A DNA stretch of 64,000 nucleotides from a virus. Within the stretch, counting starts at the first letter, position 1. Every line of letters starts with the position of its first letter. Made by a program: the position numbers and the translations under genes. This document shows positions 15,793-17,076 of this stretch, piece by piece. The stretch is taken from IMG/VR virus record IMGVR_UViG_3300046694_000299, positions 1-64,000 of that record; one strand, given 5' to 3'. The notes under the pieces are model-generated. The model ran no database searches. It saw nothing but the letters and a program-made list of their open reading frames with translations, and had not been told where the DNA came from.

Positions 15793-17076
15793 TCACGCGG
15801 CCTGGCCGTGGACGCCGGGCGTGTGGGTGGCGCGGGCGTGAAGCAGGCGGAGGGCGGTGGCGGCCTGCAGCCGAACGACTCCGTTGCCGAGGGCGCGGAG
15901 CATGGCCGAGCGGGTGAGCCCAGGGGTGTCGGTGACCCAGCCGTCGGGGAGGCCCATGAGCCATTCGGTGAAGACGGGGCTCAGTCGTCCCAGAGCGTCG
16001 GTTGGCCAGGGGGCAGGGCGGCCGAGGATGGCTTCCCACCGTCGGATGGCGGGTTCGTAATCGCCCCAGTCAAGGTCAGGTTGCCCCGGCCGTAGCTGGA
16101 GGACGTCCTCTCGCCGTCCGAGGTCGTCGGCGTCGGTAGGAGCTGCCCACTGAACACGACGTCCGACAGGGTCCAGCCCGAGTTCACGTTCGGGTTGTCC
16201 GTCTTCCGGCCCGCGGTTGCATTCCTGGTGCCCTTCGCGTCCCCAGCCATCGGCGTTGGCAGCAACTTCACGGCTTCCGGCAGGTCCGCATCCGACAACG
16301 GCCGCGGTTTGCCGTCGCGGCTTCGCCCCTGCGTCGCTCCACTGCCTTTGTCGTCCGAAGCGTTCGGCGTTGGCAGCAGCCTGACTACCGACTCCAGCAT
16401 GGGCGACCGCCGCGCCCGCTCGGAGGGGCAGTCCCCGCGATCCATGTCCGAGGCTTTCGGGGTCGGCATCAGCAGGCCAGGCGGAGACGAAGACACGCTT
16501 GCGGTGGTGGGGAGCGCCGACCTCCGACGCTGCGACGCGCGCCCATTCCGCATCGTGCCCGATGCTGGCCAGGTCTCCAAGTACGGCTCCGCATGCCCGC
16601 AGTACAGGCCCAGCGTGTCGGTCTCCCACACAGTCCGGGCAGGGTTCCATGTCACTGGTTGCTGGCGCCGAGAGGAGCCCTTCGACATTTTCGATCACCA
16701 CGAGTTTCGGTTGGAGGATGGAGATGGCGTGGGCCATGTGGTTCCACAGCCCGGAGTGGGTGTCGGGGGTGAGACCGGCCCGTTTCCCTGCGGACGAGAC
16801 GTCAGTGCACGGGAAGCCGCCGGTGAGGATGTCGATCGGCCCGTGCTCGTCGAGGACGGCCCGCCAGTCGATCTTGGTTATGTCGCCCAGATTCGGGACG
16901 GCCGGCCAGTGGCGGGCGAGGATCTTCGCGGCGTACTGGTTCTTGTCTTCCTTGCCGTTCTTGTCCGGCGGCTCGTACTGCGAGTGCCAGACCACCTCGG
17001 CGTCATAGACGTCCATCACGGCCAGGTCCAGGGCGCCCGTGCCGGTGAACAGGGAGCCGATACGCAGGGCGGTCAT
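15793..17076 (-). CDS. DNA (cytosine-5)-methyltransferase. The termini are in this frame; the central third looks out of frame (see findings).
   Basis: Motif I LFTGTGALD, motif IV GGFPCTDVS, motif VI VVIENV, motif VIII GAPHHRKRVF, C-terminal WGDYEPAIRRWE...FTEWLMGLPDGWVT...LGNGVV. ATGA overlap at 17073-17076. Confidence 0.75.
   Translation of the reverse strand: MTALRIGSLFTGTGALDLAVMDVYDAEVVWHSQYEPPDKNGKEDKNQYAAKILARHWPAVPNLGDITKIDWRAVLDEHGPIDILTGGFPCTDVSSAGKRAGLTPDTHSGLWNHMAHAISILQPKLVVIENVEGLLSAPATSDMEPCPDCVGDRHAGPVLRACGAVLGDLASIGHDAEWARVAASEVGAPHHRKRVFVSAWPADADPESLGHGSRGLPLRAGAAVAHAGVGSQAAANAERFGRQRQWSDAGAKPRRQTAAVVGCGPAGSREVAANADGWGREGHQECNRGPEDGQPERELGLDPVGRRVQWAAPTDADDLGRREDVLQLRPGQPDLDWGDYEPAIRRWEAILGRPAPWPTDALGRLSPVFTEWLMGLPDGWVTDTPGLTRSAMLRALGNGVVRLQAATALRLLHARATHTPGVHGQAA
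15981..16688 (-). other. Alternative-frame ORF inside the methyltransferase gene, carrying four LLPTP-x3-D repeats
   Basis: LLMPTPKASD, LLPTPNASD, LLPTPMAGD, LLPTPTTSD. Third-position GC is 41/43 here versus 25/44 in the MTase frame over about 16072-16200. Confidence 0.5.

What the first reader, a model, noticed from the sequence alone, without database searches (positions are those of the whole stretch)
15793..17076. C5-methyltransferase whose central LLPTP-repeat region is encoded in a different frame from its catalytic N- and C-termini
What each frame encodes:
- In the frame open from 17076 to 15793, motifs I, IV, VI and VIII and the C-terminal WGDYEPAIRRWE...LGNGVV block are canonical.
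- The ~135 aa between them read as R/G/A-rich text with repeats such as PADADPESLG, AANAERFGR, AANADGWGRE and TDADDLGRRE.
- The same nucleotides in ORF 15981-16688 read LLMPTPKASD, LLPTPNASD, LLPTPMAGD and LLPTPTTSD. These resemble the (S/L)PT(L/P)TA-type target-recognition motif of C5 methyltransferases.

Codon bias favours the alternative frame. My third-position GC counts are 41/43 versus 25/44 over about 16072-16200, and 18/20 versus 12/20 over 16381-16440.

The switch points are near 16476-16480 (tggcc) and 16069-16073 (next to a G4 run). The implied changes are +1 and -1, so the long ORF stays open.

Possible explanations:
- a doubly frameshifted (inactivated or altered-specificity) methyltransferase;
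- homopolymer assembly errors;
- a genuinely overlapping gene.

Between about 16478 and 16650 both frames look protein-like, so the first junction is not cleanly resolved.
Basis: seen in the sequence. Interest (0 to 1): 0.7.

Follow-up and report, generated by a model that had tools for sequence, protein, structure and literature searches.

The report
Methyltransferase gene with nested second gene
A phage-type DNA cytosine methyltransferase gene carries a second conserved protein-coding gene inside it in the +1 reading frame, probably encoding the enzyme's DNA-recognition part as a separate subunit, an arrangement proven so far for one E. coli enzyme but found here in dozens of Streptomyces prophages that are annotated as single genes.

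Summary
Within the 427-codon C5-methyltransferase ORF (17076..15793, minus strand), the +1 frame holds a 235-codon ORF (16688..15981) that encodes a conserved N-terminal 'W domain' and four LLPTP modules.

It is not an assembly error or a pseudogene. The same layout recurs in 65 distinct loci from Streptomycetaceae genomes, prophages and phages.

- In the middle region only the +1 frame shows purifying selection.
- The long frame is nevertheless kept free of stop codons there (0/2225 stop-prone contexts used, against 6.7% elsewhere).
- The nested ORF has its own start. The ATG is made by the rare Asn codon AAT of the ENV motif (61/64 loci) and follows an SD-like GTGGTGATC.
- Its first ~70 codons are truly dual-coding with catalytic motifs VI-VIII. 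Long-frame synonymous sites are frozen there.
- No conserved slippery site exists, so programmed frameshifting is unlikely.

Best reading: two polypeptides. Alpha carries motifs I-VIII, a disordered out-of-frame linker, and motifs IX-X. Beta is nested and carries the target-recognition modules. Together they would form a heterodimeric methyltransferase.

The nearest precedents are M.EcoHK31I (beta nested in alpha's alternate frame) and M.AquI. I class this as a new variant of a known kind. No expression data exist.

The parts
15793..17076 (-). Alpha ORF (long frame, 427 aa). A C5 DNA methyltransferase catalytic core: motifs I-VIII, then 133 aa of out-of-frame linker, then motifs IX-X.
   Evidence: ORF list. 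Pfam PF00145 E=9e-26 over aa 5-203 only. AF2 pTM 0.72 with confident N and C parts. Foldseek top hits M.HhaI and M.HaeIII. An identical protein is annotated 'DNA (cytosine-5)-methyltransferase 1' (P0268).
17084..17091 (-). Shine-Dalgarno-like GGAAGGAG upstream of the alpha ATG. The stop of the upstream gene overlaps the start (ATGA, 17073-17076).
   Evidence: Read directly from the sequence.
15981..16688 (-). Beta ORF (nested, +1 frame, 235 aa): an N-terminal W domain, four LLPTP modules, and an unconstrained tail.
   Evidence: ORF list. phrog_1008 positions 74-210, E=2.4e-34. 126 homologues, many starting MSKGSS and ending ..TLWDD. Purifying selection acts in this frame.
16686..16701 (-). Translation start of beta: SD-like GTGGTGATC (16701-16693), a 4-nt spacer, and ATG (16688-16686) formed by the rare Asn codon AAT of the ENV motif. 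An in-frame TGA lies two codons upstream.
   Evidence: AAT is used in 61/64 nested loci, against 4.7% AAT elsewhere in the same genes. Long-frame synonymous sites of L-V-V-I-E-N-V are nearly invariant, diversity 0.07-0.19.
16464..16688 (-). W domain of beta (aa 1-75), dual-coding with alpha motifs VI-VIII.
   Evidence: Per-column analysis of 30 loci. 524 cluster representatives carry this domain, almost always at the N-terminus of the ORF.
16542..16574 (-). Core of the dual-coding stretch: beta TWPASGTMRNG over alpha (G)DLASIGHDAEW.
   Evidence: Long-frame third positions have diversity 0.00 in 10 of 11 consecutive codons. Beta residues stay invariant even where alpha residues vary.
16078..16476 (-). 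Middle (M) region. In the +1 frame it holds four LLPTP modules (heads at 16475, 16379, 16265, 16142). In the long frame it reads as R/G/A/D-rich linker (alpha aa 201-333).
   Evidence: Alt GC3 116/134 vs main 79/134. Four direct repeats with spacings that are multiples of 3. Mismatch pattern alt pos1 .162, pos2 .126, pos3 .335. Alpha pLDDT 33-38 over aa 212-316. The long frame is kept stop-free.
15981..16077 (-). Second overlap: the tail of beta (..LTGAITNPPSDGG..TLWDD*) over the start of alpha's conserved C-terminal part (DLDWGDYEPAIRRWE..).
   Evidence: Variation here follows the long frame: alt pos2 (= main pos3) is the most variable at 0.42. The tail of beta is therefore probably run-on.
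15793..16077 (-). Alpha C-terminal part: WGDYEPAIRRWE, motif IX (15931-15984, LSPVFTEWLMGLPDGWVT) and motif X (15874-15900, LRALGNGVV).
   Evidence: phrog_1008 positions 225-320, E=1.3e-31. pLDDT 77-97. Normal third-position variation.

Best explanation
The locus is one transcription unit that encodes two proteins from the same strand in two frames.

**Alpha (long frame, 427 aa).** It is the catalytic core of a C5 DNA methyltransferase, carrying motifs I-VIII, IX and X. Where single-chain enzymes have their variable or target-recognition region, alpha has 133 residues. These are merely the -1-frame reading of another gene and act as a disordered tether.

**Beta (nested +1 frame, 235 aa).** It is initiated independently at an internal SD-like site and ATG inside the ENV motif. 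It consists of an N-terminal ~70-residue W domain followed by four LLPTP modules. In single-chain relatives the same modules sit in frame between motifs VIII and IX.

**Inferred mechanism.**
- Beta binds alpha non-covalently, with the W domain as the likely docking element.
- Beta supplies target recognition in trans, giving a heterodimeric methyltransferase.
- This works because C5 methyltransferases tolerate being split in the variable region.

**What is shown and what is inferred.**
- Shown:
  - two frames exist;
  - both are under selection, each in its own way;
  - beta has its own conserved start;
  - the layout is widely conserved.
- Inferred:
  - both proteins are made;
  - they associate;
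  - beta determines specificity.
For: 1. **Recurrence.** Of 104 related loci, 72 (65 distinct) have N and C in one frame, the W domain and modules in +1, the long frame open from N to C, and the nested ORF reaching C. W is +1 of N in 102 of 104 loci (exceptions: L009, where W was not detected, and L088, where W and N share a frame).
2. **The +1 frame is the selected frame in the middle.** In 369 frame-blind blastn HSPs, mismatches are .162/.126/.335 at alt codon positions 1/2/3. Module-wise, amino-acid identity is 0.88-0.93 in alt against 0.50-0.63 in main.
3. **The long frame is kept open.** Alt codons that precede AA/AG/GA never end in T: 0/2225, against 569/8528 elsewhere (Fisher p=1.4e-59). 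Ordinary genes of the same loci show 3.0% against 4.15%. The product of P(open) under codon shuffling is 10^-22.8 for 31 loci. Middle-region lengths are 81-308 codons.
4. **Own start.** AAT is used in ENV in 61/64 loci, against 4.7% AAT elsewhere. Synonymous sites are frozen across GTGGTGATCGARAATG. Mycobacterium, Gordonia and Arthrobacter phage relatives instead have AGGGGG or GAGAGGA plus GTG, built from rare AGR and AGT codons.
5. **True dual coding upstream of motif VIII.** TWPxSGSMRNG and two Trp are invariant in +1 where alpha residues vary. Ten long-frame third positions have zero diversity.
6. **Position of the W domain.** It sits at the N-terminus of its ORF in nearly all of the 150 hits listed (524 cluster representatives matched in total).
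7. **Relatives show the modules belong to the enzyme.**
   - Single-chain forms carry LLPTP in frame between VIII and IX: Martik gp71, prophi91-1 gp16, Derg gp4, P0088.
   - Split forms have W, the modules and IX-X as a second ORF: Ovechkin, Eesa, KBurrousTX, and phrog_1008.
8. **AF2 of alpha.** The core is confident. pLDDT falls below 50 (means 33-48) exactly where the +1 frame is the selected one, aa 138-158 and 212-316. The Foldseek match to M.HhaI covers only ~200 columns.
9. **Precedent.** M.EcoHK31I beta is encoded entirely in an alternate frame of alpha, and its N-terminus mediates association (PMC2836561). M.AquI is split into alpha and beta, and C5 methyltransferase fragments complement each other (PMC3404938).
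Against: - There is no direct evidence of translation of either product, of association, or of methylation.
- AF2 of beta alone is low confidence: mean pLDDT 54, with only one hairpin. Beta has no PDB or Pfam match. Its fold and its role as a recognition domain are therefore inferred from position in single-chain relatives.
- The loci are phylogenetically related, so the p-values overstate independence. However, module content and length differ widely.
- Averaged over the whole VI-VIII overlap, variation follows the long frame. The alt-frame constraint is concentrated in patches.
- Some relatives, such as P0088, lack the W domain, so it is not needed for catalysis as such.
- Sequence homology to M.EcoHK31I itself was not tested.
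Confidence: 0.72

Rival explanations
1. Programmed ribosomal frameshifting (+1 after motif VIII, -1 before WGDYEPAI) produces a single-chain enzyme N-LLPTP-C. The long-frame and nested-ORF products are by-products.
For: A hybrid reading would recreate the architecture of single-chain relatives such as Martik gp71 and P0088. The frame relations (+1 then -1) are the same in all 65 distinct nested loci.
Against: - The W domain lies upstream of any possible shift site. It is under selection in the +1 frame while overlapping the essential motifs VII-VIII.
- The nested ORF has its own conserved SD-like site and ATG.
- The long frame is kept open for 81-308 codons, which frameshifting would not require.
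- Sequences just upstream of WG.Y differ completely between loci and hold no conserved slippery heptamer.
- Two efficient shifts in one gene would be unprecedented.
Confidence: 0.07
2. An inactivated, doubly frameshifted methyltransferase pseudogene. The long ORF stays open only because high G+C makes stops rare.
For: For a single locus, chance openness is not negligible: P(open) under codon shuffling is 0.11 for the window.
Against: - 65 distinct loci keep the layout while modules are gained, lost and shuffled.
- Purifying selection acts on the +1 frame.
- Stop-prone codon contexts are avoided completely, p=1.4e-59.
- The start codon is conserved through a rare codon.
- N and C parts show normal third-position-biased variation.
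Confidence: 0.02
3. A sequencing or assembly artefact: two compensating indels at short G or C runs.
For: None beyond the proximity of a GGGG (the W-G codons) to one supposed junction.
Against: - The same frames are seen in 30 independent genome assemblies, 63 IMG/VR contigs, the cultured phages Darolandstone and Raleigh, and a 99%-identical independent metagenome ORF (P0001).
- There is no tandem or homopolymer tract.
- There are no discrete junctions.
Confidence: 0.01
4. The nested ORF is a real, selected protein, but it works independently of the methyltransferase (for example as a regulator, anti-defence factor or DNA-binding protein). Alpha would be a TRD-less enzyme, or one with relaxed specificity, acting on its own.
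For: - Beta has no recognisable fold or family beyond phrog_1008.
- Alpha retains all catalytic motifs in one chain.
- The Foldseek hit list includes compact enzymes with small recognition regions (DNMT3A-like hits).
Against: - The same modules are fused in frame into the variable region of single-chain relatives. In split relatives they are fused to motifs IX-X.
- W-domain ORFs were found only overlapping methyltransferase genes in every locus inspected.
Confidence: 0.12

Closest known systems
M.EcoHK31I (E. coli HK31; Lee, Kam & Shaw 1995, as described in PMC2836561 and PMC3404938)
   Same: [quoted passage not shown] Alpha carries motifs I-VIII and X. The N-terminus of beta mediates association with alpha. 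Beta is initiated internally.
   Different: There, beta supplies motif IX and alpha is said to hold the TRD. Here, alpha holds motif IX and beta holds the variable-region (LLPTP) modules and a W domain. The proteobacterial phage relatives seen in passing (L104, L105, L009) match the M.EcoHK31I division of labour better.
M.AquI (alpha/beta C5 methyltransferase of Agmenellum quadruplicatum)
   Same: It is a natural two-polypeptide enzyme split in the variable region, with alpha carrying motifs I-VIII.
   Different: M.AquI beta carries the distal variable region plus motifs IX-X. That corresponds to the 'split' relatives (Ovechkin gp69/70, Eesa gp39/40, phrog_1008), not to the window. In the window, IX-X have returned to the alpha frame and beta is fully nested.
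Single-chain actinophage C5 methyltransferases with in-frame LLPTP repeats (Mycobacterium phage Martik gp71, prophi91-1 gp16, Gordonia phage Derg gp4; metagenomic P0088)
   Same: They are homologous in the N and C parts (43-58% identity). The same LLPTP modules lie between motifs VIII and IX.
   Different: All or some of the modules are in the catalytic frame. In P0088 the VI-VII insertion that hosts the W domain is absent.
Programmed frameshift genes (e.g. prfB, phage tail chaperone G/GT)
   Same: Two frames contribute to products from one locus.
   Different: Here there is no slippery site and no zero-frame stop after a shift site. The second frame has an independent start and an N-terminal domain upstream of any junction.
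Multispecific Bacillus phage C5 methyltransferases (SPR, phi3T, rho11s; from general knowledge)
   Same: Several tandem recognition modules lie in the variable region, and the module sets differ between relatives.
   Different: Those enzymes are single chains with one TRD per target. Whether each LLPTP module recognises a target is unknown and was not tested.

Membership tests
C5 DNA methyltransferase (Pfam PF00145 / TIGR00675) | Motif I FxGxG (AdoMet binding) | tested here: met
   SLFTGTGALD, alpha aa 8-17. Covered by the PF00145 hit at E=9e-26.
C5 DNA methyltransferase (Pfam PF00145 / TIGR00675) | Motif IV with the catalytic Cys (PCQ) | tested here: met
   GGFPCTDVS. The Pro-Cys is present, with Thr instead of Gln. 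FPCT occurs in 29 of 104 related loci, so it is a clade variant.
C5 DNA methyltransferase (Pfam PF00145 / TIGR00675) | Motifs VI (ENV), VIII (RxR), IX and X (GN..V) in one polypeptide | tested here: met
   VVIENV, HHRKRVF, EWLMGLPDGW and LGNGVV are all in the long frame. AF2 gives a confident core and Foldseek matches M.HhaI and M.HaeIII at E~1e-11.
C5 DNA methyltransferase (Pfam PF00145 / TIGR00675) | A folded variable or target-recognition region between motifs VIII and IX in the same chain | tested here: not met
   - Alpha aa 201-333 is an out-of-frame reading with pLDDT 33-38.
- It shows no selection on the long-frame amino acids.
- Pfam covers only model positions 2-164 of 324.
- TIGR00675 scores 83.7 bits, below its cut-off of 100.65.
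Heterodimeric C5 methyltransferase with nested beta gene (M.EcoHK31I type) | Beta ORF lies entirely within the alpha ORF in another frame | tested here: met
   16688..15981 lies inside 17076..15793, in the +1 frame. This is conserved in 65 distinct loci.
Heterodimeric C5 methyltransferase with nested beta gene (M.EcoHK31I type) | Beta has its own translation start | tested here: met
   Sequence-level evidence only: a conserved ATG through the rare AAT codon (61/64), an SD-like GTGGTGATC, and frozen synonymous sites.
Heterodimeric C5 methyltransferase with nested beta gene (M.EcoHK31I type) | Beta carries motif IX; alpha carries motifs I-VIII, X and the TRD | tested here: not met
   In the window, motif IX is in alpha and the variable-region modules are in beta. 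The proteobacterial relatives L104, L105 and L009 do have motif IX in the nested frame.
Heterodimeric C5 methyltransferase with nested beta gene (M.EcoHK31I type) | Both polypeptides are required for methylation and they associate | not testable with these tools
   This needs expression and methylation assays or a complex prediction. No multimer prediction was available.
Heterodimeric C5 methyltransferase with nested beta gene (M.EcoHK31I type) | Sequence homology to M.EcoHK31I alpha and beta | not tested
   The M.EcoHK31I sequence was not retrievable with the tools. Only descriptions in PMC2836561 and PMC3404938 were used.
M.AquI-type split methyltransferase / phrog_1008 second ORF | The second ORF contains the variable region plus motifs IX-X | tested here: not met
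   Beta matches phrog_1008 positions 74-210 only. Positions 225-320 are matched by the alpha C-terminus in the other frame. The feature is met in the relatives L005, L006 and L008.
Programmed ribosomal frameshift gene | A conserved slippery sequence at the frame junction, with the zero frame closing soon after | tested here: not met
   No motif is conserved upstream of WG.Y, and the flanks differ between loci. The zero frame is kept open for 81-308 codons.
Phase-variable methyltransferase (simple-sequence-repeat switch) | A homopolymer or short tandem repeat tract at the frame change | tested here: not met
   TRF finds nothing in 15700-17200. The only direct repeats are the four 34-nt module heads.

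The most novel reading that the evidence does not exclude
Two-frame encoding may be the rule rather than a curiosity for this whole superfamily of phage C5 methyltransferases. This would hold from Streptomyces prophages to phages of Acinetobacter, Salmonella, Vibrio and cyanobacteria.

- The enzymes would be obligate alpha/beta heterodimers whose beta subunit is overprinted on alpha for 235 to ~300 codons. These would be among the longest and most widespread same-strand gene overlaps known in prokaryotic viruses.
- In the actinobacterial branch, beta would be a cassette array of exchangeable LLPTP recognition modules. That could give multi- or re-programmable specificity.
- Alpha's linker would be selected only to stay stop-free.
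- Hundreds to thousands of database entries annotated as single 'DNA cytosine methyltransferase' or 'hypothetical protein' would then each describe half of a two-gene enzyme.
Probability: 0.4. Interest if true: 0.8.

Novelty: new variant of a known kind. Interest (0 to 1): 0.66.

Why it matters
- **Annotation.** The long ORF is routinely annotated as an ordinary single-chain methyltransferase, and the nested gene is missed or called 'hypothetical'. In some phage genomes only one of the two frames is annotated, or the second gene's start is placed downstream of its conserved domain.
- **Biology of overlapping genes.** The locus is a clean, statistically strong natural example of a long same-strand overlap with three kinds of constraint side by side:
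  - true dual coding;
  - one frame coding while the other is merely 'kept open';
  - a run-on tail.
- **Enzymology.**
  - It suggests that the one studied nested-subunit enzyme, M.EcoHK31I, represents a large phage family.
  - Target recognition may be delivered in trans by a modular subunit. That would matter for predicting phage methylation specificities (anti-restriction) and for engineering split methyltransferases.

Tried and rejected
- **DNA search of GenBank phages.** Megablast of the gene and of a 14-kb surrounding stretch found nothing, so the window has no close cultured relative.
- **Family scans of beta.** Pfam and NCBIfam gave no family.
- **Structure of beta.** AF2 of beta alone with 20 homologues gave mean pLDDT 54, too poor for a fold search. 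A profile search of PDB sequences gave no match.
- **Crude codon-position diversity.** Over the first and last modules it was uninformative, because different module types were being aligned. I replaced it with module-specific and frame-blind blastn analyses.
- **Slippery site at the second junction.** A search found none.
- **Literature.** Searches for a description of overlapping or frameshifted phage methyltransferase genes returned only the M.EcoHK31I and M.AquI papers. The original 1995 paper is not held.
- **Lookup of P0041.** The look-up of encoding contigs found nothing for it.
- **Phase variation.** I considered and rejected it: there is no repeat tract.
- **Chance conservation of the alt frame.** I considered whether conservation of the long frame alone could explain it, and rejected this. 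Alt-frame residues stay invariant where long-frame residues vary.
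Full report
**1. What is in the window**

On the minus strand, an ORF of 427 codons runs from ATG 17076 to the stop at 15793. A GGAAGGAG precedes it, and its start overlaps the stop of the upstream gene (ATGA). It lies in a minus-strand operon downstream of a DnaB-like helicase (17815-19128, phrog_19). The window is 68.6% G+C. It has no close relative among GenBank phages.

The long frame reads these motifs:
- motif I, SLFTGTGALD;
- motif IV, GGFPCTDVS;
- motif VI, VVIENV;
- LGDLASIGHDAEW;
- motif VIII, GAPHHRKRVF;
- 133 residues of R/G/A/D-rich text;
- DLDWGDYEPAIRRWE, motif IX (LSPVFTEWLMGLPDGWVT) and motif X (LGNGVV).

Pfam PF00145 matches only residues 5-203.

The +1 frame holds an ORF from ATG 16688 to the stop at 15981, 235 codons long. 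It reads MSKGSS...VTWNPARTVWET...ETWPASGTMRNG...SSSPPG, followed by four LLPTP-headed modules. At DNA level the module heads are four 34-nt direct repeats spaced 123, 114 and 93 nt apart, all multiples of three.

Over the whole middle, the +1 frame scores 116/134 and the long frame 79/134.

**2. It is not an error and not a one-off**

Streptomyces phage Darolandstone gp38 has the same two-frame layout, including an ATG inside ENV.

I searched 185,579 species-representative genomes with a +1-frame peptide pattern. That gave 30 loci in Streptomyces, Kitasatospora, Streptacidiphilus and Acidipropionibacterium. IMG/VR gave 63 more.

I classified 104 loci by tblastn with three probes: the N part, the W domain and the C part. 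The result:

| Class | Loci |
|---|---|
| Nested: N and C in one frame, W in +1, long frame open from N to C, nested ORF reaching C | 72 (65 distinct) |
| N and C in one frame, nested ORF ending early, some or all modules in the catalytic frame (Derg and Martik type) | 18 |
| Split: W, modules and IX-X in one +1 ORF; catalytic ORF stops after motif VIII (Ovechkin, Eesa, KBurrousTX) | 10 |

- The remaining four loci were two nested-type loci flagged as not open (L028, a tblastn overrun artefact, and L083, unchecked), one incomplete locus (L009) and one in which W shared the N frame (L088).
- W is +1 relative to N in 102 of the 104 loci.
- A 99%-identical +1-frame ORF (P0001) occurs in an independent metagenome.
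- There is no homopolymer or tandem tract.

Assembly error and recent pseudogenisation are therefore excluded.

**3. Which frame is selected where**

*Middle region.* A frame-blind test used 369 ungapped blastn HSPs between the middle regions of different loci. Mismatch fractions were 0.162, 0.126 and 0.335 at +1-frame codon positions 1, 2 and 3. This is the classical signature of purifying selection on the +1 frame. The long frame's third position is the least variable. Module-wise, amino-acid identity is 0.88-0.93 in +1 and 0.50-0.63 in the long frame.

*The long frame is nevertheless never closed.* A long-frame stop can only arise where a +1 codon ends in T and the next begins AA, AG or GA.
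- In 65 distinct loci such T's occur 0 times in 2225 contexts, against 569/8528 (6.7%) in other contexts (Fisher p=1.4e-59).
- In 63 ordinary genes of the same loci the figures are 3.0% and 4.15%.
- Codon-shuffle probabilities of staying open multiply to 10^-22.8 over 31 loci.
- Middle regions range from 81 to 308 codons.

The loci are related, so these numbers overstate independence. However, module content differs widely between them. I conclude that selection keeps the long frame readable through the middle. That is what is needed if ribosomes must reach motifs IX-X in that frame.

*First overlap (16688-16477).* A per-column analysis of 30 loci shows real dual coding.
- Across alpha D-L-A-x-L-G-x-D-A-E-W, the long-frame third positions have zero diversity in 10 of 11 codons.
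- The +1 reading T-W-P-A-S-G-S-M-R-x-G is invariant even where the alpha residue varies. In column 54, for example, the commonest alpha residue reaches only 0.37 while beta Ala reaches 0.77. In column 57, alpha Phe is at 0.70 and beta Ser at 0.97.
- Two Trp of the +1 frame are conserved at 90-100% where the alpha residue is variable (0.47).

Averaged over the whole overlap, variation still follows the long frame. Both frames are therefore constrained, in patches.

*Second overlap (16077-15981).* Variation follows the long frame. The last ~30 residues of the nested protein look like an unconstrained run-on.

**4. The nested ORF has its own start**

- In 61 of 64 distinct nested loci the Asn of ENV is encoded by AAT, which creates the ATG. 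Elsewhere in the same genes AAT makes up 4.7% of Asn codons (11/235).
- The synonymous sites of the preceding L-V-V-I codons are nearly invariant (diversity 0.07-0.19, against 0.4-0.7 typical). They spell (G)GTGGTGATC. This matches the extended SD complementary to the 16S rRNA 3' end (GGAGGTGATC; the complementarity is from general knowledge) at 8-9 of 10 positions. An in-frame TGA lies just upstream.
- Mycobacterium, Gordonia and Arthrobacter phage relatives use AAC. Instead they have AGG-GGG or AGA-GGA (rare Arg codons) followed 7-9 nt later by a GTG created by the rare Ser codon AGT.
- A phmmer scan of 1.84 billion cluster representatives with the 75-residue W domain found 524 clusters. Among the 150 listed, the domain starts within the first ~10 residues of the ORF in almost all cases.

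**5. Why frameshifting is unlikely**

- A fusion made by shifting after motif VIII would not contain the W domain, yet that domain is under selection.
- The long frame would not need to stay open.
- The sequences immediately upstream of the conserved TGG-GG (W-G) differ completely among loci, because the last modules differ. They contain no conserved slippery heptamer.

I cannot exclude a minor frameshift product.

**6. What the parts do (inference)**

- In single-chain relatives the LLPTP modules lie in frame between motifs VIII and IX. That is the variable or target-recognition region of C5 methyltransferases. The examples are Martik gp71, prophi91-1 gp16, Derg gp4 and the metagenomic P0088 (region definition from PMC3404938).
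- In split relatives and in PHROG 1008, the W domain, the modules and IX-X form one second ORF. The window's nested ORF matches phrog_1008 positions 74-210. Its long-frame C-terminus matches positions 225-320.
- AF2 of alpha with 78 homologues gives pTM 0.72.
  - pLDDT is above 85 for residues 1-210 and 77-97 for about 320-420.
  - It falls to means of about 33-55 (below 50 per residue) at 91-100 (the catalytic loop), at 138-158 (the VI-VII insertion that hosts the W-domain codons) and at 212-316 (the middle).
- Foldseek's best hits are M.HhaI and M.HaeIII (E about 1e-11) over ~200 columns. I read those columns as the large domain, because the sequence-level PDB match covers M.HhaI residues 10-132.
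- Alpha therefore looks like a complete catalytic scaffold without a folded recognition domain, and beta carries what fills that place in relatives.
- Beta alone is predicted to be disordered. That is compatible with folding on its partner but proves nothing.

**7. Comparison with what is known**

[quoted passage not shown] Alpha carries motifs I-VIII, X and the TRD, and beta carries motif IX. Progressive N-terminal deletions of beta weaken its association with alpha. Internal Met codons in the beta frame can start translation (PMC2836561).
[quoted passage not shown] Fragments of monomeric C5 methyltransferases complement each other in vivo (PMC3404938).
- The window shares the nested-gene architecture with M.EcoHK31I but divides the parts differently: motif IX in alpha, the variable-region modules in beta.
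- It is therefore a new variant of a known kind, not a member proven by sequence. I could not retrieve the M.EcoHK31I sequence.
- I found no paper in the held library describing this layout in actinophage or Streptomyces prophage methyltransferases.
- Databases annotate the long ORF as a plain 'DNA cytosine methyltransferase'.

**8. Wider pattern seen in passing**

One distant hit of the nested protein (P0116, Pseudomonas brassicacearum) is a 277-codon ORF. It overlaps almost completely, in +1, a 279-codon short C5 methyltransferase ORF.

The same pair occurs in Acinetobacter phage ABMM1 (298 and 304 codons) and in Salmonella phage S9-5.

In IMG/VR at least 562 loci encode relatives. I analysed 79 distinct ones, with G+C of 0.42-0.64:
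- the two ORFs start 4 nt apart (RTGAATGAGCTGG);
- in most loci they end within ~20 nt of each other (a few differ by 60 nt or more);
- in 70 of the 79 the other frame has all five methyltransferase motifs.

In these loci motif IX (LNPxWVEWLMGWPIGWT) is in the nested frame and motif X is in the catalytic frame. This is the M.EcoHK31I division. It suggests that the window belongs to a large, mostly unrecognised superfamily of two-frame methyltransferase genes. I did not test selection in those loci.

**9. Verdict**

The finding is real and biologically meaningful. The best-supported reading (confidence about 0.7) is a nested overlapping gene that encodes the recognition subunit of a heterodimeric C5 methyltransferase. 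What remains unproven is translation of both products, their association, and beta's role in specificity.

Noticed in passing
L009 2983-3838; L104 597-1511; L105 597-1344; L106-L185: In phages and prophages of Proteobacteria, and by tblastn also of cyanobacteria, Porphyromonas and Lacticaseibacillus, a short C5 methyltransferase ORF (~245-305 codons) is almost completely overlapped in +1 by a second ORF (MSWLFSQALV...WGMTRNG...WPTP...LNPxWVEWLMGWPIGWT). The two starts are 4 nt apart (RTGAATGAGCTGG). There are at least 562 such loci in IMG/VR, with G+C down to 0.42. Motif IX is in the nested frame and motif X in the catalytic frame, as described for M.EcoHK31I.
   Followed up: partly
Alignment A1; window 16078-16476: The LLPTP modules fall into at least eight recognisable cassette types. 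Examples are ..TSDTNGxGxHGDGGxDLRTA....KGGPNQRGSKGDLMLPSA....TANFRPDGTPYGxGYGxTL....NGGSQHPDKRKxGGHGPTLADEV.. and ..AGDAKGTRNATAGR... They are present, absent or re-ordered among homologues, with about 1-7 matching the LLPTP-head pattern per protein (median 4). This resembles exchangeable recognition cassettes.
   Followed up: partly
window 16795-16821: Motif IV reads FPCT instead of the canonical FPCQ. The same variant occurs in 29 of 104 related loci, so it is a clade feature and not damage.
   Followed up: partly
L005 (Ovechkin gp69/gp70), L006 (Eesa gp39/gp40), L008 (KBurrousTX gp79/gp80): Several actinophage genomes annotate two adjacent 'DNA methyltransferase' genes. The second gene's annotated start lies downstream of the conserved W domain. 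The ORF is in fact open about 270-450 nt further upstream, overlaps the first gene, and there has an SD-like site plus GTG. The starts are therefore probably mis-called.
   Followed up: partly
L007 843-2061 (Gordonia phage Geodirt): Only the +1-frame ORF (gp4, 1195-2061) is annotated. The catalytic N-terminal ORF (about 843-1736, motifs I-VIII) is not annotated at all.
   Followed up: no
L002 1353-1541 (Mycobacterium phage Martik): In this single-chain relative the +1 frame still holds a 63-codon ORF for the W domain alone, with a GTG start directly after a stop. It could be a relic or a separate mini-protein.
   Followed up: no
P0195, P0123: Some metagenomic ORFs show further frame arrangements. 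P0195 joins motifs I-VI directly to the W domain right after ENV and lacks VII-VIII. P0123 has the W domain and the C part in one frame with R/G/A-rich text between them. These may be natural variants or errors.
   Followed up: no
L010 1573-2619: In a metagenomic relative with the same nested layout, a second and unrelated C5 methyltransferase gene lies immediately upstream.
   Followed up: no
window 17073-17076 and 17815-19128: The methyltransferase start overlaps the stop of the upstream 152-codon ORF (ATGA). The operon includes a DnaB-like helicase, so the gene sits in a phage or prophage replication module. The four small neighbouring ORFs tested have no PHROG match.
   Followed up: partly
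alpha aa 138-158 (window 16603-16665): The insertion between motifs VI and VII of alpha is absent from P0088 and from canonical enzymes. It coincides with the W..W part of the nested protein and has low pLDDT in the alpha model. It looks like a loop that exists in alpha only to host beta's codons.
   Followed up: partly
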